Shown: positions 2,449 to 47,206, counted from the stretch's first letter. The stretch: 64,000 nt of DNA from an uncultured Candidatus Entotheonella sp. (GCA_965217185.1 OZ244252.1:3480338-3544337), one strand, 5' to 3'. The notes: generated from the sequence alone by a model not told the origin. Numbers and translations are program-made.

Positions 2449-3690
2449 TCAAGGTCCTGACACCTTTGGCACGGTGCCAAGCTGCCGCCGAACCTCGCCG
2501 GTGCCGACAAACTGCGACAGCAGCCGATAGTTCTGCTGCTCGTAACGAATCTTGCCGGCGACGATCGCCGGATGGACCTGCAGCGCACGAGCCAGATTCA
2601 TGACGGCCATGGGGGTTGGACGCTTCCGTGCCGCGCTGGCTTCCCAAGCCACGCGGGGAACGAGTGCCTCTTGCGCCCACTCATCGGCCTGCGTTTCTTT
2701 CGGGTCTTCCCGCCTGCCTTCTACCCCGCGCAGCGTCTGGTCGTCGATAAAGGCGTTGCCCTCGTTGGTATCCAGGTGGCGGCCCACGTGGGCCAATTCG
2801 TGCAACAGACAGAACCAGAAGTTGTCGATCCGGTCGTGGCGCAGGGTCAGCCCGATCACCGGGCGACCATCGCTGAGCCGGAGCGCTGCGCCGTCGACAT
2901 ACGTCCTCGGCAAATGCAGCGCGATTGCCAATGCGATCCCGTGCTTCGACAATAGCTCCTTGGCCAGCCGCGGGCCGTCTTCAAACCCGCTGAGCCGCGC
3001 AACTTTTTTGAGGAAGCTTGGCGTAACGGTACCGGGTTCGTAGTCCGCCGCCGGCGGATTCTCGTTCCCCATCGCCAGGACCTGCCAGCACCACGCCTTA
3101 AGGGCATAGGCGTTCATCTTGGCGTTCGTGCGCATGTGGTCGTTCTTCCGGTACAGGGCGGCTCTGGCGACGTCCGGCCCGCCTGCCCGGTCGATCAGGC
3201 CGCGGATGAGCACCTCGGCATGCCCCGCCAGGTTGGGGACGGCCGGAATCCAGCCCAGCTTCGCCATCGCCTTGACCGGAAACCGGCGCCACTCGACGCT
3301 GGTCATCGGGTCGTCCAAGTCGACTTCCGACTCGCGCAGCAGCACGTCCGCCGGGATGCCAAGATGTTTGTGAAGCGCACGCGCTATCGGCATGGTAATC
3401 GCGCGCCTGCCGGAGAGCACCTCGGACACCTTCGCACGGCTGCCGATGAAGGGGATCAGGTCGCGTGGCCGCAAGTTCCCCTGCTCCATGCGGAATTCGA
3501 TCGCAGCGAGTGGACTCGGATAGCCCATCGGTTCTTGTCGACTCTCATAGAGTTCGACAAGATCGGCAAGGACGTCCAGTTCGTCGAACTCTGGGCTGCC
3601 GGGTACTGCATCCATTAGTGCGTCGATCCGGGCCAGCGCCTCTTCGTAACCCTTCTCGGTTCGGATTGGCTTGATCTTCGTATTGGCCAT
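2449..3690 (-). CDS. higA: HigA-type HTH antitoxin fused to an ImmA/IrrE-like zinc metallopeptidase domain (413 aa)
   Basis: N-terminus MANTKIKPIRTEKGYEEALARIDALMD plus an HTH region (GSRAKVSEVLSGRRAITMPIARALHKHLGI). HEXXH motif LLHELAHVGRH. The ATG at 3690 sits 1 nt from the higB stop codon. Confidence 0.75.
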   Translation of the reverse strand: MANTKIKPIRTEKGYEEALARIDALMDAVPGSPEFDELDVLADLVELYESRQEPMGYPSPLAAIEFRMEQGNLRPRDLIPFIGSRAKVSEVLSGRRAITMPIARALHKHLGIPADVLLRESEVDLDDPMTSVEWRRFPVKAMAKLGWIPAVPNLAGHAEVLIRGLIDRAGGPDVARAALYRKNDHMRTNAKMNAYALKAWCWQVLAMGNENPPAADYEPGTVTPSFLKKVARLSGFEDGPRLAKELLSKHGIALAIALHLPRTYVDGAALRLSDGRPVIGLTLRHDRIDNFWFCLLHELAHVGRHLDTNEGNAFIDDQTLRGVEGRREDPKETQADEWAQEALVPRVAWEASAARKRPTPMAVMNLARALQVHPAIVAGKIRYEQQNYRLLSQFVGTGEVRRQLGTVPKVSGP

Positions 3691-3691
3691 C

Positions 3692-3989
3692 TCACACCTC
3701 CCCCGCATTCACGCGGTCATACTGGGCATGTGTTCCCACGAAGCGTACGTAAACGATCCGCGCTGGGTAATTGATCTTCACCACGAGCCGATAGGCATTG
3801 CCCCTGATGTTGAAGACCACCCGGTTGCCACCGAGGATGCTGGCGTTGGGGTATTTCGCCTTGACCTTGGCTGGCCGGCCCATCCCAGGCCTCCTTCTCG
3901 ACCTCCCGATACCAGGCGAGCAGCGGCTCCTCGGCGTCCACATGTCGTTCCCAGAATTCCCGAAGCGGCTTCTTGCTGATGATCCGCAT
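3692..3989 (-). pseudogene. higB: HigB-family toxin, frameshifted
   Basis: The N-terminal 39 aa (MRIISKKPLREFWERHVDAEEPLLAWYREVEKEAWDGPA) are in one frame. The rest (AKVKAKYPNASILGGNRVVFNIRGNAYRLVVKINYPARIVYVRFVGTHAQYDRVNAGEV) is in another. The span is 298 nt, i.e. 3n+1. Removing the base at 3872 gives one 98-aa ORF. Confidence 0.75.
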
Positions 3990-4121
3990 GAATGCTGTGA
4001 ACCGGTCCCGTTAGATTGAAAGGTAGAATGATCCCAAATTTATTAAACCTACATTTTTCCAAATTATACGTCAACGGAAGAGCGCGAAATCGGATGATTC
4101 TTTCATACCCGCATCGCCGCG

Positions 4122-5141
4122 TTATGCCTCGCCCCTCGCCGCGCTTTCCGGGATGAGCAACTCCAGCGCCAGTAGTCCAAGGGCCATCAGCACGAACCAC
4201 TGGAAGCGGTGCACGAAGCGCTCACGGCGGTCATGTCCCGTATCCTGGCGCGCCTTGGGAGCGATGCGCTCCGTGAAAATACGGTCCAACTCAATGGCGC
4301 GGGTGCCCGCCGGCACGTAGGCGCCACCGGTCATCTGCGCCATTTCCAGCAGCAGGTCCTGGCGCAGGCGCGAGCGCACCTCCCGGCCTTGGTGCTGCAC
4401 GTAGGTCACACGCCCGTCCGGGCCGCGTACCGGGATGCGGGCGCCGGTATCCGCATCACCGACGCCGACCGCATAGATGGAGACCCCTTGCTCGGCCGCC
4501 GCGGCCGCCGCTTCGAGGGGAAAGCTGTCGTGATCGTCGCCGTCGGTGATCAAGATGATGTCTTTGTAATGGTGGGCCAACGTCGCCATGCCGCGCAGCG
4601 CGTGGCGAATCGCGTCGCCAATCAGGCTGCCGCCGCGCCCGGCGGTATACGGCCCGACTTCTTGGAGGCGCCGCAGAAAGAAGTTGTAATCCAGCGTCAG
4701 CGGGCATTGCAGGCTGGCACGGCCCGCAAAGACCACCAACCCCAACCGGTGCCCGCCTTCCTCGCGCATGACCTGCACGAGCTCCCGGATATCCACCTTG
4801 GCGCGCTCCAGGCGGCTCGGCGACACGTCTTCGGCGAGCATGCTGCGCGATACGTCGAGCAGGATCATCACGTCGCGCCCGCGGCGTTGCACGTCCTGCC
4901 AGCGCCGCCCCCACTGCGGCTGCGTCAGCGCCACGATCATGGCGGCCACAGCGCCAAGCAGGCACAATGCCTTGAGCCACCGCCAGATGTAGCGTAGGTC
5001 GTCGGTAAGCCGCGGCGCCACCGCCACGTCGATAAAGGCCGACAACGCACGGCGTTTGCGGGCAAAGCCGCAGGCGTAAAGCATCAGCAGCACGGGCAGC
5101 AACCACAACAGGTGCACGTAAGACAGAGCCGCAAAACGCAT
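4122..5141 (-). CDS. von Willebrand factor A (VWA) domain membrane protein, BatB-like
   Basis: Two N-terminal TM helices and a MIDAS-like motif in VMILLDVSRSM. The gene follows another VWA gene in a MoxR operon. Confidence 0.8.
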   Translation of the reverse strand: MRFAALSYVHLLWLLPVLLMLYACGFARKRRALSAFIDVAVAPRLTDDLRYIWRWLKALCLLGAVAAMIVALTQPQWGRRWQDVQRRGRDVMILLDVSRSMLAEDVSPSRLERAKVDIRELVQVMREEGGHRLGLVVFAGRASLQCPLTLDYNFFLRRLQEVGPYTAGRGGSLIGDAIRHALRGMATLAHHYKDIILITDGDDHDSFPLEAAAAAAEQGVSIYAVGVGDADTGARIPVRGPDGRVTYVQHQGREVRSRLRQDLLLEMAQMTGGAYVPAGTRAIELDRIFTERIAPKARQDTGHDRRERFVHRFQWFVLMALGLLALELLIPESAARGEA

Positions 5142-5155
5142 CGCCGACCCTCGCG

Positions 5156-24504: not shown

Positions 24505-24530
24505 TCGGTAGGCATAATGTAGGTGTGAGC

Positions 24531-27442: not shown

Positions 27443-27556
27443 CGTCCAATTCTCATCTGCTTGGGAGTTCATCCTCAGACCCGTTTCAACGCCGCCAACC
27501 GCGATGACAAGCCTGTCACTTCCAACGACCATTCGCAAACAACCAAGGATTCGCCA

Positions 27557-31534: not shown

Positions 31535-31538
31535 GTAG

Positions 31539-32589: not shown

Positions 32590-32964
32590 ATGGCCGCTTG
32601 GAACTTTCGGGAGTATCAGAGCGCGGAGGGGAAGCTGCCGGTATCTGAATGGCACGGAGAGCTATCCCAAAAGAACCGAGCACGAGCAGACAGATTCATA
32701 CGTATCGCCCGGAATCTCGATCGCCTTGAGATGCCGCACTTTCGGAAATTTCAACAACTGCTTGAAGCGCGGTGGTTTGGCGAAAACAAAGTCCCGCATC
32801 GGGTGTTCTGTTATGTCGCCTCCAGCGGCAGGCGTGTGATTTTCCTATGCGGCTGCACCCATAAGGACAACCGGTACAATCCGACAAACGCATACGATAC
32901 GGCTGTAGAACGTCGCAACGAAATAGAAGGGGGGAGGGCGAATACACATGCGTTCGATTTCTAA
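32590..32964 (+). CDS. RelE/ParE-superfamily toxin, phage Gp49-like
   Basis: About 125 aa with EGKLPVSEWHGELSQKNRARADRFIRIA...LEARWFGENKVPHRVFCYV...VIFLCGCTHKD. An overlapping HTH gene follows. Confidence 0.6.
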   Translation: MAAWNFREYQSAEGKLPVSEWHGELSQKNRARADRFIRIARNLDRLEMPHFRKFQQLLEARWFGENKVPHRVFCYVASSGRRVIFLCGCTHKDNRYNPTNAYDTAVERRNEIEGGRANTHAFDF

Positions 32965-36900: not shown

Positions 36901-37106
36901 GCGTGAACAACCTCCGTGCCTACGGCCGCTGGGCCTTCGCCGAGTTCACGGAGGTGTATGAGATACAATCGGACTTCGAGGCCAGGGTGGAAGCGGCGTT
37001 GAACGTTGATCGAGAGAGGCAAGCCGCCCAGACTATGCGGACCGTCCGGCGAACTGCAGGGCAAGTTGCGATTCGAGCGCCAGTTGACGCGGGACGAGGT
37101 GAATGA
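33984..37106 (+). CDS. res: Type III restriction enzyme Res subunit (SF2 helicase plus PD-(D/E)xK nuclease)
   Basis: LKLATGTGKTTVMAM (motif I), VLNDEAHHCY (DEAH), SVSMLTEGWDTNTVTHVLG (motif VI region), and the C-terminal YIPDFIVLL...LIVEIKG nuclease motif. 1040 aa, uninterrupted. Confidence 0.85.
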   Translation: MDDRFFKFPILNSPYEYPSRHWELDESGQPTNRVLNTRRRVSFISPIPKPKKRRGAAAEQASLVFDEASRKLADGGQQYDLTAIINEVRRQVDVWRNLPSPDQWRVTPETARLLRHWRHHRFSDIRPFFCQIEAVETAIWLTEVASHAGRAGRDFLDNLASANRDANPDLPRLALKLATGTGKTTVMAMLIAWQTVNAVRRPQSSRFTRSFLVVTPGITIKDRLRVLQPNDPDSYYRGRELVPTDMLADLDKARIVITNYHAFKLRDRLELSKGGRALLQGRGEPLAAQETEGQMLQRVMPELMGAKGILVLNDEAHHCYREKPGEDDEGDLKGDDRKEAERNREAARLWISGLETVQRKLGLNRVFDLSATPFFLRGSGYAEGTLFPWTMSDFSLMDAIECGIVKLPRVPVADNIPGSDMPKFRNLWEHIGRRMPRKGRGKATGLDPLSLPVELQTALQALYGHYEKQFELWQEAGIEVPPCFIIVCNNTSTSKLVYDYISGFLHDSPDGSKTLVPGRLALFRNYHEDGTPIGRPRTLLIDSEQLESGEGLDKNFRDLATNEIERFRREIVARTGDRRQAENLSDHDLLREVMNTVGKAGRLGGSIRCVVSVSMLTEGWDTNTVTHVLGVRAFGTQLLCEQVVGRALRRQSYDLNEKGRFDVEYADVLGVPFDFTAKPVVAPPQPPRATVQVMAVTPDRDACEIRFPRVAGYRVELPDERLSAAFNDDSTFVLTPDLIGASVTRNEGIIGEGIDLNLVHTDTLRRSTLLYNLTQRLLVTKWRDPNEEPKLHLFGQLKRITAQWLDNHLVCKGGTYPAQLMYQELADTACERITNAITRAAMDSRPVKAVLDPYNPAGSTRHVHFTTSKTLRRQTDARRCHVNWVILDSDWEAEFCRVAESHPRVRAYVKNQGLGLEVPYRSGSTTRTYIPDFIVLLDDGRDDPLHLIVEIKGYRGEDAKAKKETMETYWVPGVNNLRAYGRWAFAEFTEVYEIQSDFEARVEAALNVDRERQAAQTMRTVRRTAGQVAIRAPVDAGRGE

Positions 37107-37270: not shown

Positions 37271-39025
37271 ATGTCCTGGGACAGCGACAGCCTGTTACAG
37301 CAACTTGTACTTGGTGAGGACAGCCGCGTCGAATTCAAGGCGATCGTTTTCGCCGGTGATCGTGTCCGAGAGCCTCACCGGAATGTTATTGCCGACGAAC
37401 TGGCCGCTTTTGGCAACACCATCGGCGGCACCTTGATCTTCAGCGTGTCAGACGCTGGTGAGGTGTTGCCGATGAATCGGCAACAGATGGACGCACTGGA
37501 GGCCTTCGTCCGTGAGATTTGCGGCGACAGCATCCACCCGCCGTTGGCGTTCGTGACCCAGCGGCTGGCTTTGCCGGACGGTTCGTTCGTCCTGGTCACC
37601 GAAGTCGAACAGAGCGCGCTGGTTCACAAGAGCCCCGGGGGATACCTTACCCGTCAGGGCAGTTCCAAGCGTGAGCTGTCGCCGGAAGCACTGCATCGCC
37701 TGTTTCAACAGCGGGGGCGTTCGGGCCTGTTCGGTCCTGACGAAGCGATCGTCACCACAACCGGACCCAACACCCTCGACGCGGCCTTGATGGATCGTTT
37801 CCTGAGTTCGCGTGCCACTGAACCTACCGCGGTCCAGCTCACGAAGCTGGGATTGGTACGGGAAGACGACAGTGGCGTGACCCGTGCTACCGTCGCCGGC
37901 GTGCTGCTTTGCACCGCGCGTCCGGATGCGTACGTGCGCGGCGCCGTGATCGAAGCGGTTCGCTATCGCGGCACCGTGCTCGGCCGGGCGAGCCAGCATG
38001 ACGCGGCGTCCATCACCGGCCCATTGGACCGGCAGATCCGCGATGCCGTCAACTTTGTCAGGCTCAACACGCAGGTGGCGGCACGCAAGGCACCCGGGCG
38101 GGTGGAGACCCCGCAATTCAGCCCACGGGCGGTGTTCGAGGCCATCGTCAATGCAGTGGTACATCGCGACTACTCGATAGCCAACGGGAAGATACGGCTT
38201 TTCATTTTCGACGACCGTATGGAGTTGTACTCGCCGGGCGCCCTGCCCAACACGCTGCCTATCGAAGCCATGCGCAATCGACAATCCACCCGCAACGAAA
38301 CGCTTGCGTCCATCCTCCGCATGCTCACGGTGGGGGACATCGACGGTGCTGGCGACCGGCAGTACTTCCTGGAGCAACGCGGCGAAGGGGTGCCGATCAT
38401 CTACGAGCAGACCCGGGACCTGACCGGAAGCGATCCGCAATATGAACTGCTCGGCGGCACGGAACTACGCCTGACCCTGCCTTCCGCCCGCCCACCGGTA
38501 GCGGGCATCGAAGGCGAAGTATCGGTATCTGCGGCCGGGCAGCCGCTGTCAGACGCGCAGGTCGTTGCGTTGTACCCCAACAAGACCTGGATGGAGGGGA
38601 CAACCGATACGTTCGGCCGGGTCGCTTTTGGGTTTCACTCGGAGCTTCCCATCACCGTTTTCTGCGCGGCACCGAGGCATGGCGGCCATGTGACGCGGGA
38701 TTGGCGACCGCCGCAACCGCTCTCCGTGCAACTTGAACCGCTACCGATGGGCGGCTCGGTCGTATTCCCGGAACAAACCGGTCATTTGCCCGGCTTGACC
38801 GGGCGCCTTAACCCGATCCTCGATAATCTCGACCGCATGTATCTGTACGCGACGAACGTTGCCATTGATGATGGCAAGCAGCAGCCCGTTCGCCTCAAAC
38901 TGAATCAGCCCTTGCGGCTCACCGACGTCAACGGTTCTGAATGGATCGTGCGGTTCATCGAGATGATCGGCAATTCGGCGTTATTGGACTACGAGCCTCC
39001 GAACCTCGACCCGGTTCGGAAATAA
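37271..39025 (+). CDS. AlbA_2 (Schlafen-type) plus HATPase_c_4-like putative DNA-binding/ATP-binding protein with an extra C-terminal beta-rich region of about 150 aa
   Basis: N-terminal GEDSRVEFK...ELAAFGNTIGGTLIFSV is AlbA_2. The middle FEAIVNAVVHRDYS...MELYSPGALP...RNETLASIL is HATPase_c_4-like. I cannot confidently assign a family to the C-terminal 430-584 region. Confidence 0.7.
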   Translation: MSWDSDSLLQQLVLGEDSRVEFKAIVFAGDRVREPHRNVIADELAAFGNTIGGTLIFSVSDAGEVLPMNRQQMDALEAFVREICGDSIHPPLAFVTQRLALPDGSFVLVTEVEQSALVHKSPGGYLTRQGSSKRELSPEALHRLFQQRGRSGLFGPDEAIVTTTGPNTLDAALMDRFLSSRATEPTAVQLTKLGLVREDDSGVTRATVAGVLLCTARPDAYVRGAVIEAVRYRGTVLGRASQHDAASITGPLDRQIRDAVNFVRLNTQVAARKAPGRVETPQFSPRAVFEAIVNAVVHRDYSIANGKIRLFIFDDRMELYSPGALPNTLPIEAMRNRQSTRNETLASILRMLTVGDIDGAGDRQYFLEQRGEGVPIIYEQTRDLTGSDPQYELLGGTELRLTLPSARPPVAGIEGEVSVSAAGQPLSDAQVVALYPNKTWMEGTTDTFGRVAFGFHSELPITVFCAAPRHGGHVTRDWRPPQPLSVQLEPLPMGGSVVFPEQTGHLPGLTGRLNPILDNLDRMYLYATNVAIDDGKQQPVRLKLNQPLRLTDVNGSEWIVRFIEMIGNSALLDYEPPNLDPVRK

Positions 39026-39042: not shown

Positions 39043-39252
39043 ATGGAATGCACGGCCATCGTCAAACGCAGCGGCGAATGGTGGATTGGCTGGATTGAGG
39101 AAGTTCCCGGCGTCAATTGCCAGGAACGCACCCGCGAAGAGTTGATAGACACGCTCGCCATCACGCTTGAGGAGATGTTGGAGGTCAGGCGCGAGGCAAC
39201 GCAATCGGCAGCTGGGGACGGTTATGAGACGGCAAAGATCTCCATTGCATGA
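39043..39252 (+). CDS. hicB: HicB-family antitoxin (UPF0150)
   Basis: MECTAIVKRSGEWWIGWIEEVPGVNCQERTREELIDTLAITLEEML. RBS GGAGGAA. ATGA overlap with the next gene. Confidence 0.75.
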   Translation: MECTAIVKRSGEWWIGWIEEVPGVNCQERTREELIDTLAITLEEMLEVRREATQSAAGDGYETAKISIA

Positions 39253-39438
39253 AGCGCACGACTCTTCTCAGGCATTTGCGGCGGGAAGGCTGTACGTTGT
39301 TGCGTGAAGGCCGACGGCATTCGACTCTGGCAGAACGCCCGCGGTGACCGGCAGACGGCAATCCCGCGTCACACGGAAGTGGACAACATACTCGTCCGCA
39401 AGGTCTGCGCCAACCTCGGCGTGCCACAGATCGGATGA
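39249..39438 (+). pseudogene. hicA: HicA-family toxin, frameshifted
   Basis: MKRTTLLRHLRREGCTLLREGRRHS is in frame 0, with a stop at 39345. The continuation LWQNARGDRQTAIPRHTEVDNILVRKVCANLGVPQIG* is in frame +1. The span is 190 nt (3n+1). The shift lies at about 39324-39327. Confidence 0.75.
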
Positions 39439-39482: not shown

Positions 39483-40582
39483 ATGGCTCGTAAGGCCAAA
39501 AGCCGAAAACAGATCGAAACCCTGCGGCACCAGGACGCCTCGCGCAAGAACATCCCCACCGCCGAGTACCAGGCGGTGATGGCGGCGGACGACCGCAGCC
39601 CCATCGAGGTCGCCTACGGTCGCCGCAACCGCGACCTCGACCCACAGCTCGTCTGGCGCGGCAAGGACGCGCAGGATTGGTCCGACCTCGTGGTGCAGGC
39701 GCCGCCGCTGTTCATCCAGGAAAAGGTTCACCCCAAGATGCTGATCGACGACCTGCGGCGCCGCAGCGAGGAAGCAGGGGCCGGGAAAGCCGACGACGCA
39801 TCCGGCTTCCAGACCGATCTCTTCGCCGACTTCAACGGCCTGCCGAGCGCCGACGCCCGCACCGAGTTCTACCAGCACGACGCCAACTGGTCGAACCGTA
39901 TGATTCTGGGCGACAGCCTGCAGGTGATGGCCTCGCTGGCGGAGCGCGAGGGGCTGCGCGGCAAGGTGCAGTGCATCTACGTCGATCCGCCCTACGGCAT
40001 CAAGTTCAACTCCAACTTCCAGTGGTCCACCACCAGCCGCGACGTGAAGGACGGCAACGCCGCCCACATCACCCGCGAGCCGGAGCAGGTGAAGGCGTTC
40101 CGGGATACGTGGCGGGACGGGATTCACTCGTACCTGACGTACCTACGGGATCGGCTGACCATAGCGCGGGATTTGCTGACGGAGAGCGGCAGCATCTTCG
40201 TGCAGATCGGGGACGAGAACGTGCACCGGGTGCGGGCGCTGATGGACGAGGTTTTTGGGGAGGAGAACTTTATCGCGGAAATCGCGTTCCAAAAGACGTC
40301 TTCGACATCTTCAGAATCACTGTCAGGTGTTTTTGATCTACTTCTCTGGTTCGGCAAATCGATGACTTGGAAATATCGACCGCTGTTTCAAATTAAAGAG
40401 CTTGGCGGTACGGGAACAACTCAATATTCCTTTGCTGAAAATGCCGATGGTTTAAGGCGAACACTTGCCGAATGGGATGAGTTAAGCGTCAACAGGAAAT
40501 TTCTCAAAGTTTTTTCTCATGGTGATATCACGAGCCAAAGACCAGCGCAGGGAGAAGATGTTCGTAAATTCACTTACGAAGG
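39483..40582 (+). pseudogene. mod: Type III (beta-class) N6-adenine DNA methyltransferase Mod, 5' fragment, interrupted by an IS
   Basis: Motif IV in CIYVDPPYGIKFNSNF. The reading frame runs into the IS and stops at 40641-40643. Confidence 0.85.
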
Positions 40583-42076
40583 AGCCACTTGCAAAACTCC
40601 GCTAGTTTGGCCTCGGAGCGGTTGTCATGAGACCGTACGGTGAATCATTTGCCGTCGGTGGTTCCAATTGCCACGAATTCAGCCATGGCGGTGCCAAGTT
40701 CCGGCTCCCGTCTTGCGATGCGGACGCAACTCTCCCCCCTGCGTACAGGACAGCAGCGTGTGCCGGGATGGAGGAAACGGGGCCGCGAGACCAGCTTCAG
40801 GTCACCAAGCGCATCAACTGATCAACCGTGAGCGCCACAATCCCGAACATCAGATGACACAGCACCTTGGCATGGCCGCGCACGCGCACGCTGCGACCTC
40901 CGAATTCATCCTTGAGGCGACCATTGACGCGCTCGACGGTCGAGCGTTCGTGGTAACGTCTCTCCTCAGACAGGACCAACCCACAGGCACGCCGTGCCTG
41001 CCTCTCCTGCCGCAGCGCCTGCTTGCGCGCGCCGCTGCGGGGGTTGACGTCGATGATCGCAACATGACCCAGGGCGCGGCTGTGGGCGCGGATTTCCGGG
41101 GCATCGTAGGCGCTGTCCATCAGGTCATACAGGTTGCGGACTCGCTCCGCCGTCAGGGTCGCCAGCGGGATGGCGACTTGGCTGTCGTGCAGCGACGCCG
41201 AGGTAAGCAGGCAACTGACCGGGATGGCGCCGTCGGCCGCGTCAATATGCAACTTGTAGCCGCTCCATGACGTCTGATAGCCTTTGGCGTCGCGCTTGAC
41301 GCCAATGTCACAGGCGTACGGCAAGTCGGCGAGCATCTCCGGCAGGGTCATGTTGCGCTGGCGCTCCAGACGGCGCGGCTCCGTGGGGCGCTCCTCGCCC
41401 TTGCGCGGACGCCCGCGCCGCCGCTTCGGCTTGGCCGGCTGCGGCGCCTTCGGGGTCGGTCTCTCGCGCCCTTCAATCGCCGTCGAATCGCGTGAAATAT
41501 GGCCTGCCAGACGCTCACCCTGGGTGCGTTTGATCAGCGCCTCGTGCAGGTGGCTCGGCAAGGCGCTGTCGGCAAATTCGGCAAAGGCACGTGAAAACGT
41601 CGCCTCGCTCGGAATGTGCTTGACGCTACGCCAGCCGCACAACCGGCGCAGGGTGCTGTCGTGGCGCAGACGATCAAGCAACATCCGGGTGCTAACCAGC
41701 GCGAAGACGGCCTTGGCGATGAAGGCGCGGGCTAAGGCCGCGCGGTCGCTTGGCGGACAGCCGCGACGCCGGTGCTGGTACGGCAGCAGCGTTTCCACCC
41801 GCACCCATTCGAGCACCATGACGAAGCGCTGATGGCGTTCCCCCAGCGCCCCGATCGTTTCCTCAAGCTGCGGGAACAGCAGCGCTTGAAAGCAAGACCA
41901 GTAACTCGATAGTATCTCACGTAAGGCCATTGGGGTCGTTCCTCCTGATTCGGTTGTTTGACAACTCAACAGAATCAGAAAGCGGCCCCAATGTCCACCA
42001 ATCAGCCCCAGAGCCTGCCCCGTGCTTGACACGGAGAAAGAAAATCCCACTCGTACACGCAATTCTGCAAGTGGCT
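40583..42076 (-). mobile_element. Insertion sequence (IS4/IS5-superfamily DDE transposase), 1494 bp, with 6-bp target duplication CGAAGG
   Basis: Terminal inverted repeats AGCCACTTGCA (40583-40593) and TGCAAGTGGCT (42066-42076). CGAAGG occurs at 40577-40582 and again at 42077-42082. Confidence 0.85.
40797..41930 (-). CDS. DDE transposase (DUF772-like N-terminus plus DDE_Tnp_1-like core)
   Basis: MALREILSSYW..., PPSDRAALARAFIAKAVFAL, HISRDSTAIEG, LMDSAYDAPEI, RSTVERVNGRLKDEFG. 377 aa from the ATG at 41930. Confidence 0.8.
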   Translation of the reverse strand: MALREILSSYWSCFQALLFPQLEETIGALGERHQRFVMVLEWVRVETLLPYQHRRRGCPPSDRAALARAFIAKAVFALVSTRMLLDRLRHDSTLRRLCGWRSVKHIPSEATFSRAFAEFADSALPSHLHEALIKRTQGERLAGHISRDSTAIEGRERPTPKAPQPAKPKRRRGRPRKGEERPTEPRRLERQRNMTLPEMLADLPYACDIGVKRDAKGYQTSWSGYKLHIDAADGAIPVSCLLTSASLHDSQVAIPLATLTAERVRNLYDLMDSAYDAPEIRAHSRALGHVAIIDVNPRSGARKQALRQERQARRACGLVLSEERRYHERSTVERVNGRLKDEFGGRSVRVRGHAKVLCHLMFGIVALTVDQLMRLVT

Positions 42077-43454
42077 CGAAGGAAAATCATTTCAGGTAAA
42101 GAAGGGCACTTTCAAGACAGACGCGAGTGGTCTGGAACGTATCTCACGCGCAAAACGCATGATCTTCATTGGGAACACGCTTCGATATGTTCGGTTCTTA
42201 GATGACTTCAGTATCTTCCCCTTCTCGAACCTCTGGACTGATACCACCACATCTGGATTTTCTGACCCCAAAGTATACGTCGTCCAGACGAACCGCTCGG
42301 TGGTTGAACGTTGCATCCTCATGGCCACCGACCCCGGCGACCTTGTCCTCGACCCGACCTGCGGCGCCGGCACCACCGCCTACGCCGCCGAGCAGTGGGG
42401 CCGCCGCTGGATCACCATCGACACCTCTCGCGTCGCCCTGGCGCTTGCCCGCGCCCGCATCATGGGGGCGCGCTACCCCTGGTATCTGCTCGCCGACAGC
42501 CATGACGGACAACTGAAAGAAGCCGACATCGCCCGCAAGGCGCCCGCCGACACGCCCACCTACAACGACATCCGCCAAGGGTTCGTGTACGAGCGCGTGC
42601 CCCACGTCACCCTCAAGTCCATCGCCAACAACGCCGAGATCGACGTGATCTGGGAGAAATGGCAGGAGACGATTCAACCGCTGCTTGCGCAACTGGGCGT
42701 CGTTGTAGGGGCGACGCATGCGTCGCCCCTACCAGAATGGGAAATCCCAAGAGACCTGCCAGACCACTGGCCGCCGGAGGCTGCCCCGCTGCACGAACAG
42801 TTCTGGACGGCAAGGGTCGTGCGCCAGCGCGAAATCGACGCCTCCATCGCCGCCAAGGCGGACTCCGAATACCTCTACGACAAGCCTTACGAGGACAACA
42901 AGAAGGTGCGCGTTGCCGGGCCGTTCACCGTCGAAAGCCTGTCGCCGCACCGCCTGCTGGGGGTGGACGAAAACGACGAACTCATCGACAACGTCGCCGA
43001 AGACAAACTCGGCTACGGCGGCAAGCAGGACTTCGCCGGCATGATCCTGGAGCACCTCAAGACCGCCGGCGTCCAGCAGGCGCACAAGGACGACCGCATC
43101 ACGTTCGCCGCCATCAAGCCCTGGCCCGGCTACCACGTCTGCGCCGAGGGAACCTACGTCGAAGGCGACGCCGATTCCGGCGCCGAGAAGCGCGCCGGCA
43201 TCTTCATCGGCCCCGAGTTCGGCACCGTTTCCCGTCCCGACCTTGTGGAAGCCGTCCGCGAGGCCGCCGACGCCGGCTTCCACGTGCTGATCGCCTGCGC
43301 CTTCAACTACGACGCGCACGCCTCGGAGTTCAACAAGCTCGGCCGCGTCCCCATCCTCAAGGCCCGCATGAACGCCGATCTGCACATGGCCGGCGACCTC
43401 AAGAACACCGGCCAAGGCAACCTCTTCGTCATCTTCGGCGAGCCGGATATTACA

Positions 43455-43482
43455 GTGGTCAGCGGCCAGTGGCTGGTGACCA
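43455..43482. repeat. Four tandem heptamers GTGGTCA GCGGCCA GTGGCTG GTGACCA (left flank of the nested cassette)
   Basis: Read directly from the sequence. Confidence 0.75.
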
Positions 43483-43506
43483 GCAAGGGCAGGATGGTAG
43501 CGAATT

Positions 43507-43875
43507 ATGAGCACGTTAAAGAGTTATCAGGACTTGGAAGTGTGGAAGAAATCAATCGACTTGGCAGAGACGGTCTATCGGCTCTCGGCGCAGTTTCCGC
43601 CGGACGAGAAATACGGTCTCAGCAGCCAGGTACGGAGATCGGTGGTCTCGATCGCAGCGAACATCGCGGAGGGAGCGGAGCGACAGGGGACGAGGGAGTT
43701 TCTGCAATTTCTGGGGATCGCGAGCGGGTCTCTAGCCGAGACGGAGACCTTCCTGATTCTGGCGCAGCGATTGGGGATGGCCTCACCGGATCAGGTGGCT
43801 CCGATATTGAATCAGGCGGGAGAAATCGGGCGGATGCTCAACGGTCTGAAACGCTCGCTGCACTCCAGAACCTGA
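43507..43875 (+). CDS. Four-helix-bundle protein (23S rRNA intervening-sequence protein family, PF05635-like), nested inside mod in the +1 frame
   Basis: MSTLKSYQDLEVWKKSIDLAETVYRLSAQFPPDEKYGLSSQVRRSVVSIAANIAEGAERQGTREFLQFLGIASGSLAETETFLILA is the family signature. Confidence 0.85.
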   Translation: MSTLKSYQDLEVWKKSIDLAETVYRLSAQFPPDEKYGLSSQVRRSVVSIAANIAEGAERQGTREFLQFLGIASGSLAETETFLILAQRLGMASPDQVAPILNQAGEIGRMLNGLKRSLHSRT

Positions 43876-43892
43876 GCAGCGCCGATTTCCCG

Positions 43893-43927
43893 CTTTCACT
43901 GACCACCGGCCACTGGTCACAAGTCAC
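43893..43927. repeat. Five tandem heptamers CTTTCAC TGACCAC CGGCCAC TGGTCAC AAGTCAC (right flank, inverted relative to the left array)
   Basis: Read directly. 43899-43918 is a 16/20 reverse-complement match to 43464-43483. Confidence 0.75.
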
Positions 43928-44376
43928 TGTTCATGGCGTCGACGTGTTCCACCCCAATACCGGCGAAATCCGCAGCGACAACGCCGACGGCATCGCCTGC
44001 TGGTTCGTCGACACCGATTACAACGAAGAGAGCTTCTTCGTCCGCCACGCCTATTTCCTCGGCGCCAGCGACCCGTACAGGGCACTCAAGACCACACTAA
44101 AAGCCGAAATCAACGAGGAGGCGTGGACGACGCTGCGCAGCGATACGTCACGGCCGTTCGCCAAGCCGCAGTCCGGCCGCATTGCCGTGAAGGTGATCAA
44201 CCATCTGGGGGATGAGGTGATGAAGGTGTTCCGGGTGTGAGGGCAGTTGGATGCCCAAATATAGGAAAATTAGCCGAGTTTATCGTCTTTTTATAAACTG
44301 GCATAACTTATCTATAAACGGTCCGAAATCGCTCACGTAAAGGGGCTAAGGTCAACGCGACAGCGGGGGATTTATC

Positions 44377-45912
44377 ATGGATCGACCCAATGACTCGGCG
44401 GCCACGGAAACGCGGCCCTCGATGTCTCCTGACGTTCGGATTTCGGTAACGAATTTCGGACCCATCACAGAGGGCACGATAGACCTGCGGCCGTTGACGG
44501 TATTCGTTGGCCCAAGCAATACGGGCAAGACCTATCTCGCAGTTCTGATCTACGCTCTTTACCGGGTTTTGGGTGGACTTCCTCGGGTCCCTGTCATGCA
44601 TCGGCATCGTTACGCTTTTGGACAAGCTCCCCGACCCGACCAATTGACAGACGAAGCAGTGCAGCAAGAAGAACTCCGGGATGTGCTGGAAAAAATGTCG
44701 AACTCAGAACAAGCATTCAGATTCTGCGACTTGCCCGAAAGTATGCGCGGCGTAGCACAGGTCGAACTCAGCGATCCGGACCGACTGGCGGCTGGTCTAG
44801 AGACCGAACTCCGTCGCTGTTTCGACCTTGATTCGATTTCCGATCTGGTTCGATTCTCCGGGCGCCCCGACGGCCTACAGTTTTCGCTGGCTGTCAGCGA
44901 GGAAAGCCAAGCTCTCTGGCGGTTCTGCATGGGTGTTTCTCAAACGGGTATCACGGCAAACGGACAAATCACCGAAGGCATGGTCCTCCTTCCCGAAGGC
45001 TGGTCGCACCAGAAGGAATGGAGACCTAGCTTTCTACCACCCCATTGGAGTCTGCCTGAAGCACTTTGGTCTACGACCAACGCCGCTAGAGATCAGGGCG
45101 AAACCCATTATCTGCCGGCCGCACGCGGCGGCATCATGCAGAGTCATCGCGTTATTGCAAGTTTGCTCCCAAAGCTTTTCACCAGGGCAAGGGTCGAACC
45201 TTTCGAGATTCCGACGTTTTCCGGCGTAATGGCTGATTTCATGGAGCGGCTCATCCTTTACCGAGGGGAGCGAAAGCGGCAGAACCCATTGAGAGAAATT
45301 GCCGATGCCTTTGAACGCGAGGTGCTTGCCGGGCGGATAGAGATTCGGAGGTTCTCAGCGAGTGGGTATCCAGAGTTCGTTTACCAACCCCAGGAAACAG
45401 AAGAGGACATTCGTCTGAGTCGTGCTTCGTCTATGGTCTCCGAACTCGCTCCCGTCGTGCCATTCCTTCGGGGCACCATCAACCGCGGCGACATGTTCAT
45501 CATGGAGGAACCCGAAGCCCATCTCCATCCCGCCGCCCAAACCCAGATAGCAGTGACTTTGGCGCGTATAGTGCGTGCCGGAGTGCGGGTCGTCGTCACG
45601 ACGCACAGCGACTGGTTGCTCCAGGAAATCGGCAACCTAATGCGGGAAGGGGAGTTGGAAGAACAGACTGGCAAGCCTACGAGCGAAGAAGGTCTTCCGA
45701 GTTCGCTGCGCCCCAGCGAAGTGGGCATCTGGCTGTTCCGTAAGGATGAAGACTCAGCGGGCTCCATAGTGAAAGAAATCCCGTTCAACCGCAGTGAAGG
45801 CGTCGAACCCGAGGAATATGAAGACGTTGCCGAGGAACTGTACAACCGTTCAGCGAACCTGCAGAACCGGCTCGAAGAAATAGCAGGGGATGCGGAACGC
45901 GACGATGAGTGA
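44377..45912 (+). CDS. ABC/SMC-like ATPase of the AAA_15/AAA_21 type (Septu PtuA / PARIS AriA-like architecture)
   Basis: Walker A VFVGPSNTGKTY. Walker B plus D-loop MFIMEEPEAHLHPAAQ. H-loop VVTTHSDWLL. Long helical insert between them. 511 aa. Confidence 0.75.
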   Translation: MDRPNDSAATETRPSMSPDVRISVTNFGPITEGTIDLRPLTVFVGPSNTGKTYLAVLIYALYRVLGGLPRVPVMHRHRYAFGQAPRPDQLTDEAVQQEELRDVLEKMSNSEQAFRFCDLPESMRGVAQVELSDPDRLAAGLETELRRCFDLDSISDLVRFSGRPDGLQFSLAVSEESQALWRFCMGVSQTGITANGQITEGMVLLPEGWSHQKEWRPSFLPPHWSLPEALWSTTNAARDQGETHYLPAARGGIMQSHRVIASLLPKLFTRARVEPFEIPTFSGVMADFMERLILYRGERKRQNPLREIADAFEREVLAGRIEIRRFSASGYPEFVYQPQETEEDIRLSRASSMVSELAPVVPFLRGTINRGDMFIMEEPEAHLHPAAQTQIAVTLARIVRAGVRVVVTTHSDWLLQEIGNLMREGELEEQTGKPTSEEGLPSSLRPSEVGIWLFRKDEDSAGSIVKEIPFNRSEGVEPEEYEDVAEELYNRSANLQNRLEEIAGDAERDDE

Positions 45913-46391
45913 GGTTCTCAACAAGCTCCGGTCACAAGTAGGCGCAGCAAATCTCAGCAATTCGTGCAGCCGGGACGGGTGCCAAGTTGATATCACGGAT
46001 GTGCCACGCAGCCGCGTCATCATAGACATGGACAAGGCGCTCTCAGCTTCCACTACGACAGGCAAACGATGTGATTACGTCCTGTTCTTCATGGATGCTG
46101 AAAACACGCTCGTAACGGTTCCCTTGGAACTCAAGAGCGGTGGTGTCGACTCAATATCGGAGGTCTGTGAGCAATTGCAACAGGGCGCAACATACGCCGA
46201 AGACCTTGCAAGGGAAGATTCCGAACCTATCTGTCGCCCGCTCCTGTTCCATGGCAAGGGCATCCACAAAGCGCAACGCCCTAAATTGAATCGCGCCAAG
46301 GTTCGTTTCCGCGGCAGGAGGCGGCAGGAGATTGACCATTGACACGACACGCTGTGGCGAGAATCTCATTCGTGCCCTGAAGGAGAAGTGA
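45905..46391 (+). pseudogene. Small PD-(D/E)xK-like putative nuclease, C-terminus frameshifted by a 10-bp tandem duplication
   Basis: The ATG at 45905 overlaps the ATPase stop (ATGAGTGA). GKRCDYVLFF...(about 15 aa)...VPLELKSG fits a D...ExK core. The current frame stops at 46340-46342. Without one repeat unit the ORF reads ...KVRFRGRRLTIDTTRCGENLIRALKEK* and ends at 46389-46391. Confidence 0.5.
46311..46330 (+). repeat. Perfect 10-bp tandem duplication GCGGCAGGAG GCGGCAGGAG
   Basis: Read directly from the sequence. Confidence 0.95.
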
Positions 46392-46459
46392 GCCCCCTGC
46401 CTACACATTGAGGCTGCGCATCCTTACTTCACCGGTAACGTCGAAAGGGGACGAATCCC

Positions 46460-46672
46460 ATGCGAAAACAGACCATCCAATACACCTCGCCCATCGACGC
46501 GCTGATTGCGGTGACCAAACAGTTGAGCATCTACGAAAGCCAGCACAAGATGGATTCGAAAGAGTTCTTTGACCAGTACAGCCGGGGCCAACTGTCCGAT
46601 GACGCAGTGTTCATCGATTGGGCCAACGATTACCGCCACTATCTGCACCTCCGTCGCAAGGAGCAACCATGA
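46460..46672 (+). CDS. Small 70-aa protein, first gene of a three-gene hicBA-containing operon
   Basis: Coding-like sequence with an ATGA overlap onto the hicB start. I recognise no family. Confidence 0.5.
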   Translation: MRKQTIQYTSPIDALIAVTKQLSIYESQHKMDSKEFFDQYSRGQLSDDAVFIDWANDYRHYLHLRRKEQP

Positions 46673-46872
46673 AGCTAAAGGTAATCATCCACGAAGCGGA
46701 AGAGGGTGGTTATTGGGCCGAGGTACCCGCCATCCCCGGATGCGCCACGCAGGGCGAGTCATTTGAAGAACTGCTTGGCAATCTCTACGAAGCCGTCGAA
46801 GGTTGCCTGTCGGTGGATGTTCGAGACATACCCACTTCAGATACCGACAGGGTTATCGAAATTGCTGTATGA
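46669..46872 (+). CDS. hicB: HicB-family antitoxin (UPF0150)
   Basis: MKLKVIIHEAEEGGYWAEVPAIPGCATQGESFEELLGNLYEAVEGCL. Confidence 0.8.
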   Translation: MKLKVIIHEAEEGGYWAEVPAIPGCATQGESFEELLGNLYEAVEGCLSVDVRDIPTSDTDRVIEIAV

Positions 46873-47030
46873 AGGCCGCTAGCGGAAAGCGATTTCGCCG
46901 ATTGCTGGAATCAAAAGGATGGCGCCTAATGCGCATCAGCGGCAGCCACCACATCTACGCCAAGGCGCATGCACCAATCCGCATATCAGTTCCGATTCAC
47001 GGCAATACGCCCCTCAAAATCGGCATGTAG
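46869..47030 (+). CDS. hicA: HicA-family toxin, probably truncated by an in-frame TAG
   Basis: MKAASGKRFRRLLESKGWRLMRISGSHHIYAKAHAPIRISVPIHGNTPLKIGM, then TAG at 47028-47030. The same frame continues RHFMKLADN to a TGA at 47058-47060, which looks like the normal HicA C-terminal helix. Confidence 0.7.
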   Translation: MKAASGKRFRRLLESKGWRLMRISGSHHIYAKAHAPIRISVPIHGNTPLKIGM

Positions 47031-47206
47031 AGGCACTTCATGAAGCTCGCGGACAATTGACGAATCGGAACTTTAGACCCCACCGCACCGACCCACTTTT
47101 GACGCAGCAGCCAAAATGCGCTAGAACTCAACACTTCCCAGCTTGCATCATCCCACTGTGCCGGCTCGCCGTGCGATACTCTCGCTCAACACACTTGGAG
47201 GTCATC

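What the first reader, a model, noticed from the sequence alone, without database searches (positions are those of the whole stretch)
2449..47060. Systematic pattern: toxic or effector genes are lesioned, while their partners are intact
Across the window the damaging component of nearly every selfish or defence module carries a small lesion:
- higB: +1 base at 3872.
- NYN RNase: +1 base at about 23952.
- hicA-1: +1 base at about 39325.
- mod: an IS insertion, which in turn disables the intact Res.
- mini-nuclease: the 10-bp duplication at 46311-46330.
- hicA-2: a premature TAG at 47028.
- BrnA-like fossil at 25.8 kb.
By contrast higA, both hicB genes, the ATPase, res and all housekeeping ORFs have clean frames, including very long ones (the 1124-aa protease, 818-aa pheT, 1040-aa res). 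Random sequencing error would not be this selective. Possible explanations are ongoing domestication or decay of addiction modules in a reduced-selection (for example host-associated) lineage, retention of orphan antitoxins as anti-addiction or regulatory genes, or counter-selection against toxins during cloning or amplification of the source DNA. The Gp49-like toxin at 32590 appears intact and is the exception.
Basis: partly seen in the sequence, partly recalled or inferred. Interest (0 to 1): 0.7.

Follow-up and report, generated by a model that had tools for sequence, protein, structure and literature searches.

The report
Toxin-first decay of defence modules
In this sponge-symbiont (Entotheonellaceae) chromosome the poison halves of several toxin-antitoxin and defence modules carry real, population-wide mutations while their antidotes are intact, which is a clear instance of the already described toxin-first decay of such modules.

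Summary
All listed lesions exist and are real mutations. They recur base-for-base in many independent shotgun metagenome assemblies, both short-read and long-read. They are of mixed types: a 4-bp and a 10-bp tandem duplication, two +1 insertions, a CAG>TAG nonsense change and an IS5-family insertion.

Intact ancestral alleles were found in close relatives for higB, the NYN gene, mod, the small nuclease-like gene and hicA-2. None was found for hicA-1.

The organism is a Candidatus Entotheonellaceae (Tectimicrobiota) bacterium. The window lies next to dnaA.

Some details need correcting:
- higB carries +4 bp (TGGC x2), not +1.
- The extra base in the NYN gene is at 23958.
- mod is not a harmful component.
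- The "BrnA-like fossil" is an antitoxin remnant.
- The ATPase, intact here, is broken in sister strains.

Best explanation: ordinary two-step decay. A toxin can be lost safely, but an antitoxin cannot be lost while its toxin still works. In no lineage examined was an antitoxin damaged beside a live toxin.

Sequencing error and cloning counter-selection are excluded. Selection for orphan antitoxins remains possible (hicB-2 dN/dS 0.12-0.16) but is unproven.

This is a known phenomenon in a new host, so interest is modest.

The parts
2449..3690 (-). higA: intact 413-aa antitoxin-type gene (HTH plus IrrE/M78 peptidase-like domain)
   Evidence: Pfam Peptidase_M78 22.4 bits plus weak HTH_3/HTH_31. 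It has the same 413-aa length in L031 and L032, where higB is intact. This exact protein is on record in 34 blocks of the collection.
3692..3989 (-). higB pseudogene, inactivated by a 4-bp tandem duplication (TGGC x2 at 3868-3875)
   Evidence: Frame break seen. The repaired protein matches HigB_toxin 1-73/74 at 108 bits. The lesion is identical in L001-L003. The 4 bp are absent from the syntenic L031 and L032, which encode the intact 97-aa P0121.
23874..24504 (-). NYN/LabA-like gene with a +1 insertion at 23958 that replaces the conserved 27-aa C-terminus
   Evidence: Pfam NYN 30.8 bits. Intact 209-aa allele P0001 (99% aa) found in L030; the DNA alignment shows the single extra base. The frameshifted 206-aa product is on record in 32 blocks.
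25662..25895 (-). Remnant of a BrnA/CopG-antitoxin-like gene: the N-terminal motif is kept and the ribbon-helix-helix part is lost; no toxin lies beside it
   Evidence: 116 homologues share only residues of about 5-45. The close relative P0242 keeps 24 more residues...SRLVSLKVSEPLLAAFKAK.... 3 of 10 longer homologues carry Pfam BrnA_antitoxin or CopG_antitoxin C-terminal to the motif. The window ORF itself has no Pfam or NCBIfam hit.
32590..32964 (+). Gp49/RelE-like toxin, apparently intact (the exception)
   Evidence: Pfam Gp49 covers 4-88/90 at 21.7 bits, below the 23.9 cut-off. The frame is open. One strain (L007) has an H22Y change.
32948..33625 (+). HTH (Xre-type) partner of the Gp49-like toxin, intact
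   Evidence: NCBIfam couple_hipB/HipB-like HTH hits. HTH_3/HTH_31 in the gene calls.
33984..37106 (+). Type III restriction subunit Res, intact (1040 aa)
   Evidence: ResIII/RE_endonuc in the gene calls. PADLOC REase_III hits are weak. Same length in L036, where mod is intact. dN/dS 0.14 against L036.
37271..39025 (+). Schlafen/AlbA_2 plus HATPase_c_4 gene lying between res and mod, intact here
   Evidence: Pfam families in the gene calls. It is split by a 49-bp tandem duplication in sister lineage L036.
39043..39252 (+). hicB-1: intact 69-aa HicB/UPF0150-like antitoxin
   Evidence: Pfam UPF0150 16.7 bits, weak. The exact protein is on record in 35 blocks. 80 environmental homologues are mostly followed by an intact hicA.
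39249..39438 (+). hicA-1 pseudogene: frame break at about 39322-39330, with the first Trp of the conserved HSWW motif lost
   Evidence: Family consensus ...REGxRHSWWxN.... The same lesion is in L005-L008, L035 and L036.
39483..44240 (+). Type III mod, split by an IS (N part 39483-40581, C part 42082-44240)
   Evidence: PADLOC MTase_III PDLC03632 at 484 and 850 bits for the two halves. In-silico excision gives one 1085-aa ORF. An intact 1086-aa allele is in L036.
40582..42077 (-). IS5-family insertion sequence (DDE_Tnp_1/DUF772 transposase, 12-13-bp terminal inverted repeats, 4-bp GAAG target duplication)
   Evidence: A 99.7% identical copy lies next to higA in strain L001. Short-read contigs break inside it.
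44377..45912 (+). AAA_15/AAA_21 ATPase (PD-T4-4_A / PDC-M47A-like), intact here
   Evidence: PADLOC 127.8 bits. It is interrupted by a 182-bp MITE-like insert at 45086-45089 in strains L005 and L006.
45905..46391 (+). Small PD-(D/E)xK-like partner gene, truncated by a 10-bp tandem duplication (46311-46330); the present ORF ends at 46342
   Evidence: Intact alleles: P0357 (99%, 158 aa, L043) and a 163-aa allele in L035/L036, none with the duplication. D57, E75 and K77 are invariant and C147 is lost. AF2 model pLDDT 91.8; best PDB matches are all PD-(D/E)xK nucleases but weak, E >= 5e-3.
46460..46672 (+). tumA-type antitoxin gene, intact, with no TumE (DUF6516) toxin beside it
   Evidence: NCBIfam NF045776 TumA at 128 bits, cut-off 100. 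TumE-TumA is described in PMC10584680.
46669..46872 (+). hicB-2: intact 67-aa antitoxin
   Evidence: Pfam UPF0150 and HicB_lk_antitox, weak. Same length in L043, where hicA-2 is intact. dN/dS 0.12-0.16 against L035 and L016.
46869..47076 (+). hicA-2 pseudogene: CAG>TAG at 47028-47030 plus a later +1 (A) at about 47055
   Evidence: HicA_toxin 54 bits when the stop is read through. L043 has CAG and an open 68-codon ORF. Sister species L014 shares the TAG but not the extra A.

Best explanation
The window comes from a Candidatus Entotheonellaceae (Tectimicrobiota) sponge-symbiont chromosome, close to dnaA. It carries horizontally acquired toxin-antitoxin modules (higBA, two hicBA, a Gp49/HTH pair, an orphan tumA, a BrnA-like remnant). 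It also carries a defence island: a Type III R-M system with an embedded Schlafen/AlbA_2-like gene, and an ATPase with a small PD-(D/E)xK-like partner.

These modules are not under selection to stay active and are decaying by ordinary mutation: small tandem duplications, single-base insertions, a nonsense change and IS or MITE insertions. The pattern arises because selection filters which first hit is allowed.
- A null mutation in a toxin or effector is harmless.
- A null mutation in an antitoxin kills the cell while the toxin is still active.
- In a Type III system, loss of Mod is harmless because Res cannot act without Mod.

So toxins and effectors die first. Their partners then drift and are lost later. 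This is the two-step decay described for chromosomal TA systems.

Shown here: the lesions are real, their polarity relative to intact ancestral alleles, their fixation in one lineage, and the order of events across lineages.

Inferred: that the encoded toxins were active before the lesions, that the lesions abolish activity, and that purifying selection on antitoxins is the filter.
For: Real and fixed:
- The higB duplication is identical in three assemblies from three samples.
- The nuclease duplication and the hicA-2 TAG are identical in L004, L005 and L006.
- The hicA-1 frameshift is in L005-L008, L035 and L036.
- The NYN frameshift product is on record in 32 blocks of the collection.
- The mutation types are heterogeneous and none lies in a homopolymer run.

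Polarity:
- Intact higB lies in the same synteny in L031 (98.2% nt) and L032 (99.2%).
- Intact NYN allele P0001.
- Intact mod, 1086 aa, in L036, and exact restoration by excising the IS.
- Intact nuclease-like gene and intact hicA-2 (CAG) in L043.

Order of events: every damaged antitoxin or protective gene seen had a toxin that was already dead, or that was removed in the same event.
- L014: hicA-2 carries the same TAG, and hicB-2 sequence is absent upstream.
- L016, L035 and L036: hicA-2 is deleted and a shortened hicB-2 is kept.
- L035: a deletion of about 190 bp runs from the dead hicA-1 into mod.
- The BrnA-like remnant has no toxin beside it.

Continuing decay:
- A second lesion in hicA-2.
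- A MITE-like insert in the ATPase, and a second IS in mod, in sister strains.
- A 49-bp duplication in the AlbA_2-like gene of L036.

Generality: of 73 environmental loci of the hicB-1 family, 19 have a stop-containing, truncated or missing hicA next to an intact hicB.

Statistics: Fisher p = 1.4e-4 for defence genes against other genes. For toxin against antitoxin within the pairs, the chance is 0.044.

Literature:
- hok-sok copies inactivated by IS and point mutations, decay of ccdO157, and similar observations for R-M systems (PMC2654758).
Against: - Toxicity of the ancestral alleles and loss of function of the lesioned ones were not tested.
- The hicA-2 TAG removes only the last 16 of 68 codons, and the NYN and nuclease lesions change only the C-terminal tails, so residual activity is conceivable.
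- NYN is not an established toxin and has no recognisable partner.
- The asymmetry within pairs rests on three pairs (chance 0.044).
- The 73-locus survey was ascertained through hicB, so it cannot by itself prove asymmetry.
- No genome-wide census of pseudogenes was possible.
- One sister assembly (contig_35) shows indels in three non-defence genes. They may be assembly errors, or they may be real.
Confidence: 0.82

Rival explanations
1. The lesions are sequencing or assembly errors.
For: Two of the lesions are single-base insertions. One sister assembly, contig_35, has unexplained indels in other genes.
Against: - The lesions are identical in assemblies made with different technologies and assemblers from many samples: SPAdes NODE_, metaMDBG ctg.._l and Flye-style contig_ names.
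- None lies in a homopolymer run.
- They include 4-bp and 10-bp tandem duplications, a transition to a stop codon and an IS with a target-site duplication.
- Two are shared by lineages 2.5-5% diverged.
Confidence: 0.01
2. Toxin genes were counter-selected during cloning or amplification of the source DNA.
For: None found. It is a known artefact of clone libraries (own knowledge).
Against: - The same alleles occur in direct shotgun metagenome assemblies, including multi-megabase long-read contigs of 5.85 Mb and 2.98 Mb.
- The lesions follow the phylogeny of lineages.
Confidence: 0.01
3. The decay is shaped by positive selection. Loss of toxins and defence effectors was favoured in the symbiont, for example because of the cost of self-intoxication or of restriction. 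Orphan antitoxins (higA, hicB-1, hicB-2, tumA) are actively kept as anti-addiction, anti-phage or regulatory genes.
For: - hicB-2 shows dN/dS of 0.12-0.16 at dS 0.48-0.75 between lineages that have each lost hicA-2 in a different way.
- hicB-1 is identical in protein sequence across lineages that share the old hicA-1 frameshift.
- One lineage has fixed lesions in at least four modules, while co-occurring relatives keep intact alleles.
- The anti-addiction concept is established (PMC2654758).
Against: - It is unknown when each toxin died relative to the divergence measured, so the low dN/dS may date from when the toxin was alive.
- The sequences are very short (about 58-69 codons).
- Other lineages do lose or damage the antitoxins: hicB-2 in L014, tumA in L035, and the BrnA-like remnant.
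- The number of toxin lesions is compatible with neutral decay.
Confidence: 0.2
4. Pseudogene formation is elevated across the whole genome (small population size, IS expansion), and the window only seems selective because of small numbers.
For: - IS copies are active and polymorphic: next to higA in L001, and a second IS in mod in L005.
- A MITE-like insert was seen.
- Tandem duplications recur.
- There are indels in three non-defence genes of contig_35 and a split amidase in the 2x-coverage contig L043.
Against: - In the window, 0 of about 42 non-defence genes are broken against 6 of 15 defence/TA genes (p = 1.4e-4).
- Core genes give full-length, single-HSP matches in sister species and carry no frameshifting indels relative to L031.
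Confidence: 0.1
5. The short tandem duplications are reversible switches, in the manner of phase variation, that turn higB and the nuclease-like gene off and on.
For: Two lesions are perfect tandem duplications (4 and 10 bp) that could revert by slippage. Type III mod genes are classic phase-variable loci (own knowledge).
Against: - No contig with the window haplotype lacks a duplication.
- The non-duplicated alleles sit on haplotypes that differ by 0.8-5% in the flanking DNA.
- The repeats have only two copies.
- The other lesions (nonsense, IS, +1) are not readily reversible.
Confidence: 0.03

Closest known systems
Two-step erosion of chromosomal type II TA systems (Photorhabdus survey, PMC13617665; decay of ccdO157 in E. 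coli, cited in PMC2654758)
   Same: - Toxins are inactivated by truncations, point mutations and insertions while the antitoxins are still intact.
- Antitoxins are lost later.
- The modules sit in variable spots and differ between close relatives.
   Different: The host is an uncultured sponge symbiont. Polarity was established from metagenome populations, not from isolates. Here the same rule also covers a Type III R-M system and a candidate two-gene defence system, and no functional assays exist.
Inactivation of the chromosomal hok-sok copies of E. coli K-12 by insertion sequences, point mutations and rearrangements (as summarised in PMC2654758)
   Same: Several addiction modules in one chromosome are each disabled by a different kind of lesion, including IS insertion.
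   Different: Those are type I (RNA antitoxin) systems. Here the systems are type II protein pairs and defence genes.
Type III restriction-modification systems (EcoP15I-like; Mod carries specificity and Res depends on Mod; own knowledge)
   Same: There is a Mod with a strong MTase_III match and a ResIII-type Res with a C-terminal endonuclease region. Loss of Mod silences both activities. The central (target-recognition) part of mod differs completely between lineages.
   Different: res lies upstream and is separated from mod by a Schlafen/AlbA_2-like gene and a hicBA pair. Inactivation is by an IS insertion, not by simple-repeat phase variation.
Orphan antitoxins and the anti-addiction model (PMC2654758)
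   Same: Intact antitoxin genes lie beside dead or absent toxins: higA, hicB-1, hicB-2 and tumA.
   Different: No evidence here that they neutralise incoming toxins. Their intactness may simply reflect how recently the toxins were lost.

Membership tests
HigBA type II TA | Toxin with a HigB_toxin (RelE-fold) domain | tested here: met
   The repaired ORF matches PF09907 over 1-73/74 at 108 bits. It is 99% identical to 97-aa homologues, some named 'mRNA interferase HigB' by their sources.
HigBA type II TA | Toxin gene upstream of, and abutting, an HTH antitoxin gene | tested here: met
   The higB stop lies 1 nt from the higA start. The HigA HTH hits are sub-threshold (HTH_31 19.5 bits, antidote_HigA 16.5 bits). 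There is an additional M78 peptidase-like domain.
HigBA type II TA | Toxin inhibits growth and the antitoxin rescues | not testable with these tools
   Needs a kill/rescue assay with the repaired allele.
HicAB type II TA | HicA_toxin domain | tested here: met
   hicA-2 scores 54.1 bits with the stop read through. hicA-1, once repaired, scores only 24.3 bits (cut-off 27) but aligns over 4-57/58. It also matches 54 intact environmental HicA sequences.
HicAB type II TA | Adjacent HicB-type antitoxin | tested here: inconclusive
   UPF0150 and HicB_lk_antitox hits of 16.7-21.3 bits are below the cut-offs. Conserved hicB-to-hicA adjacency with ATGA overlap is seen in 54 of 73 environmental loci.
Type III restriction-modification | Mod methyltransferase of the Type III class | tested here: met
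   PADLOC MTase_III PDLC03632 at 484 and 850 bits for the two halves.
Type III restriction-modification | Res subunit (ResIII helicase plus endonuclease) encoded with mod | tested here: met
   PF04851 ResIII in the gene calls. PADLOC REase_III hits are weak, 21 bits. res lies 2.4 kb upstream of mod, with three genes between them.
Type III restriction-modification | Motif-specific methylation and Mod-dependent cleavage | not testable with these tools
   Would need methylome (long-read kinetics) or biochemistry.
TumE-TumA TA | TumA antitoxin | tested here: met
   NF045776 equivalog at 128 bits, cut-off 100.
TumE-TumA TA | Adjacent DUF6516 (TumE) toxin | tested here: not met
   No neighbour gives such a Pfam hit. 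tumA is followed by hicB-2, so tumA is an orphan or has a different partner.
BrnTA TA (BrnA antitoxin) | BrnA_antitoxin/CopG ribbon-helix-helix domain | tested here: not met
   The window ORF has no Pfam or NCBIfam hit. Only some longer homologues carry PF14384 or PF12441 after the shared N-terminal motif. It is therefore a remnant at best, and of the antitoxin, not of the toxin.
PD-T4-4 / PDC-M47 candidate defence systems | A-component ATPase | tested here: met
   PD-T4-4_A at 127.8 bits and PDC-M47A at 89.5 bits.
PD-T4-4 / PDC-M47 candidate defence systems | Cognate B component | tested here: inconclusive
   PDC-M47B at 17.5 bits, E = 6e-4. The D...ExK motif is invariant and the fold hits, though weak, are consistently PD-(D/E)xK nucleases.
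Two-step (toxin-first) TA decay | Lesioned toxin beside an intact antitoxin, with an intact ancestral toxin allele in relatives | tested here: met
   higB and hicA-2. For hicA-1 no intact close allele was found.
Two-step (toxin-first) TA decay | No antitoxin loss while the cognate toxin is intact; antitoxin loss follows toxin death | tested here: met
   This holds in all lineages examined: L014, L016, L035, L036 and L043. The sample is small.

The most novel reading that the evidence does not exclude
The orphan antitoxins (hicB-2, hicB-1, higA, tumA) are not merely waiting to decay. They are kept by selection in these sponge symbionts as immunity against toxins brought in by mobile elements or phages. 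On this reading, one Entotheonellaceae lineage has recently and adaptively shed the killing halves of at least four modules while co-occurring relatives kept them.
Probability: 0.2. Interest if true: 0.5.

Novelty: new member of a known kind. Interest (0 to 1): 0.3.

Why it matters
The practical value is for annotation and for the ecology of defence systems. In this lineage the higBA module, both hicBA modules, the Type III R-M system and the ATPase/nuclease pair should all be scored as non-functional. Counts of 'defence systems' in sponge-symbiont MAGs that ignore frameshifts will overestimate active immunity.

The data also give a well-polarised natural example of the order in which addiction modules die. 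For most lesions both the ancestral and the derived allele are available, often from the same metagenomes. That makes kill/rescue tests, and a test of the anti-addiction idea, straightforward to design.

It does not reveal a new mechanism.

Tried and rejected
- Sequencing error was rejected after comparing more than 20 independent contigs.
- I suspected that the odd low-complexity stretch in the C-terminal half of Mod (aa ~438-600, 'SGQWLVTS...TTGHWSQVT') was an in-frame MITE. It is also present in the intact alleles of L035 and L036, so it is native.
- I checked whether 37271-39025 is part of mod. It is a separate AlbA_2/HATPase_c_4 gene.
- The apparent overlaps of long ORFs (5156-6826 with 6112-7182; 25892-27907 with 27191-28816) are upstream ORF extensions, not frameshifts.
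- Pfam does not extend over the NYN C-terminus, so the NYN lesion could only be proven with homologues.
- The search for an intact hicA-1 allele failed. All close lineages share the lesion, and an exact-pattern scan of JGI metagenomes found nothing.
- The PDB fold search for the small protein gave only weak matches.
- The dN/dS estimates on the antitoxins are too short and undated to decide between drift and selection.
- The 73-locus hicBA survey is biased by ascertainment through hicB. I use it only to show that dead hicA beside live hicB is common.

Full report
**What the window is**

The window has about 63% G+C and contains dnaA (59156-60547) with a 525-bp upstream gap. It also contains minCD, lexA, pheST and other housekeeping genes.

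A scan of one genome per species with PheT found the closest relatives to be MAGs of Candidatus Tectimicrobiota / Entotheonella. The hits were 96% amino-acid identity to Langseth_MAG_00043 and 89-93% to four Entotheonella MAGs, all with conserved gene order around pheT. The source is therefore an Entotheonellaceae bacterium, a group known as sponge symbionts.

**Check of each lesion**

I translated the suspect regions in six frames and scanned them against Pfam. I then read the DNA and repaired each gene in silico.

- **higB (3692-3989, minus strand).** The frame changes after 39 codons. The DNA shows TGGC twice in tandem at 3868-3875. Removing one copy gives a 97-aa protein that matches HigB_toxin end to end (108 bits). 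The lesion is +4 bp, not +1.
- **NYN gene (23874-24504, minus strand).** The catalytic domain is in frame, but the last 27 residues are read in the wrong frame.
- **hicA-1 (39249-39438).** The frame breaks at about 39322-39330.
- **mod.** It is split by a 1496-bp IS5-family element (40582-42077) with inverted-repeat ends and a GAAG target duplication. Excising the element and one GAAG copy restores a single 1085-codon frame, so the IS is the only lesion in mod.
- **Small gene after the ATPase.** It carries a perfect 10-bp tandem duplication at 46311-46330.
- **hicA-2.** It has TAG at 47028-47030.
- **ORF at 25662-25895.** Its first ~42 residues match a family of small proteins. Some longer members of that family carry a BrnA/CopG-antitoxin domain. 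It is a remnant of an antitoxin, not of a toxin.
- **37271-39025.** This gene is a Schlafen/AlbA_2-type gene, not part of mod.

**Are the lesions artefacts?**

No. Look-ups by exact protein sequence found the same locus in many independent ENA metagenome assemblies. These came from different assemblers and read types.

- HigA is on record in 34 blocks of the collection, always next to a 63-aa HigB fragment.
- The higB region is identical in three assemblies.
- The frameshifted 206-aa NYN product is on record in 32 blocks.
- The nuclease duplication and the hicA-2 stop are identical in L004, L005 and L006.
- The hicA-1 break is identical in L005-L008.
- Short-read contigs end inside the IS, as expected for a repeat that really sits in mod.

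None of the lesions lies in a homopolymer run, and the types are mixed. Cloning counter-selection is excluded for the same reasons.

**Polarity: which state is ancestral?**

Intact alleles exist in relatives for most of the lesions.

- **higB.** Alleles of exactly 97 aa and 99% identity occur in the same gene neighbourhood in L031 (98.2% nt identity to the window) and L032 (99.2%). Both lack the 4 bp.
- **NYN.** An intact 209-aa allele (99% aa) shows that the window has one extra base at 23958. Thousands of homologues of 208-211 aa share the lost C-terminus.
- **mod, ATPase and the small gene.** L036 has an intact 1086-aa mod, a 521-aa ATPase and a 163-aa small protein without the duplication.
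- **Small gene and hicA-2.** L043 (95% nt identity) has a 99%-identical, intact 158-aa small protein. Its hicA-2 is open, with CAG where the window has TAG.
- **hicA-1.** No intact close allele was found.

The partners in the window have the same lengths as the alleles that sit next to intact toxins, so they are intact.

**Age and order of events**

The hicA-1 break is shared by lineages about 2.5% apart in DNA (L036). It has also lost the first Trp of a conserved HSWW motif, so it is old.

The hicA-2 TAG is shared with the sister species L014. The window has since acquired a second lesion in hicA-2, an extra A at about 47055.

Other lineages show later stages of decay:
- In L014 the sequence upstream of the dead hicA-2 is no longer hicB-2.
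- In L016, L035 and L036, hicA-2 is deleted and a shortened hicB-2 remains.
- In L035 a deletion of about 190 bp runs from the dead hicA-1 into the start of mod.

Genes that are intact in the window are broken elsewhere:
- The ATPase carries a 182-bp MITE-like insert in L005 and L006.
- mod carries a second IS in L005.
- The AlbA_2-like gene carries a 49-bp tandem duplication in L036.

I found no case of a damaged antitoxin beside an intact toxin.

**Statistics**

Six of 15 TA/defence genes are lesioned, against none of about 42 other genes (Fisher p = 1.4e-4). Within the three TA pairs, the length-weighted chance that each lesion falls in the toxin is 0.044.

The first result is expected for accessory genes. 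The second is suggestive on its own and gains weight from the comparative series above.

Core genes gave full-length single matches in sister species. They also have no frameshifting indels relative to L031.

**Generality**

I examined 73 environmental loci encoding a HicB-1 homologue with enough flanking DNA. Of these, 54 have an intact hicA, 8 have stop codons in hicA, 4 have it truncated or frameshifted, and 7 lack it. Five of the eight nonsense cases hit the Trp codons of the HSWW motif.

The set was ascertained through hicB, so it cannot prove asymmetry. It does show that dead hicA beside live hicB is commonplace.

**Explanation**

[quoted passage not shown] Earlier reports describe hok-sok, ccdO157 and R-M systems inactivated by IS elements and point mutations (PMC2654758).

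The rule that covers all cases is that the first tolerated hit is in a component that can be lost safely. That means toxins and effectors. In a Type III system it also means Mod, because Res depends on Mod (established knowledge of EcoP15I-type enzymes).

- The small protein has an invariant D...ExK motif, a confident AF2 model and weak but consistent nuclease fold hits.
- The wording does not fit mod or the BrnA-like remnant.
- It is uncertain for NYN, which has no known partner.

**What remains open**

hicB-2 has dN/dS of 0.12-0.16 between lineages that lost hicA-2 in different ways. This is compatible with selection on orphan antitoxins. However, the timing of toxin death is unknown and the genes are very short.

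**Verdict**

This is a real and well-documented observation with a conventional explanation. It is a new instance of a known phenomenon in an uncultured sponge symbiont.

Noticed in passing
window 20729-21581 (+): A group II intron without room for a reverse-transcriptase ORF. Rfam group-II-D1D4-4 (91 bits) matches at 20729-20871 and Intron_gpII (42.8 bits) at 21430-21581, only about 560 nt apart. It lies in a lower-GC3 island together with an unknown 318-aa ORF, an ADP-ribosylglycohydrolase and the NYN gene.
   Followed up: partly
window 46460-46672 (+): The gene is a TumA-type antitoxin (NCBIfam equivalog, 128 bits) with no DUF6516/TumE toxin nearby. It overlaps the start of hicB-2 by 4 nt, which suggests either a tumA-hicB-hicA operon or an orphan. 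In L035/L036 its 5' end is altered by a 2-bp deletion.
   Followed up: partly
window 3868-3875 and 46311-46330; L036 about 5195-5292: Short tandem duplications are a recurrent lesion type in this clade: 4 bp in higB, 10 bp in the nuclease-like gene, and 49 bp in the AlbA_2-like gene of a sister lineage.
   Followed up: partly
window 40272-40581 and 42082-42308, compared with L035/L036: The central (presumed target-recognition) part of mod is not alignable between the window allele and the intact allele of L035/L036, while the flanks are 94-97% identical. This points to allelic specificity variation of the Type III system.
   Followed up: no
L005 19285-19466 and L006 17824-18005 (window site 45086-45089): A 182-bp MITE-like insert in the ATPase gene of sister strains. 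It encodes a remnant of an IS630-like transposase N-terminus (MIVKKLYVVRLSEEERAELTKRVK). No copy is present in the window.
   Followed up: partly
window 23737-24647 compared with L030 7386-8296: The NYN gene with about 140 bp of flank on each side is 97.5% identical to a copy in a completely different context (integrase, SIR2_2, DDE_3 transposase). The family is unusually conserved, with at least 70% identity across the listed homologues, a few of which sources name as Alpha- or Gammaproteobacteria. This suggests a mobile cassette.
   Followed up: partly
L044-L123 (hicA homologues downstream of hicB): In environmental relatives of hicBA-1, 5 of 8 nonsense mutations in hicA fall on the Trp codons of the conserved HSWW motif. 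The window's own lesion also removes the first Trp.
   Followed up: partly
L005/L032 (ERZ25068827 contig_35), window sites 6572, 8308, 28679: This sister assembly has small insertions that split or extend three non-defence genes: the 355-aa gene at 6112-7182, MoxR/DUF58 and PBP4. It is unresolved whether these are assembly errors or real pseudogenes.
   Followed up: no
window 8-1135 (+): An RTX/hemolysin-type calcium-binding repeat protein gene shows in-frame length differences (18 bp and 3 bp) between lineages.
   Followed up: no
window 58632-59155: A 525-bp non-coding gap upstream of dnaA is probably the replication origin. The decaying defence island lies only about 12-25 kb from it.
   Followed up: no
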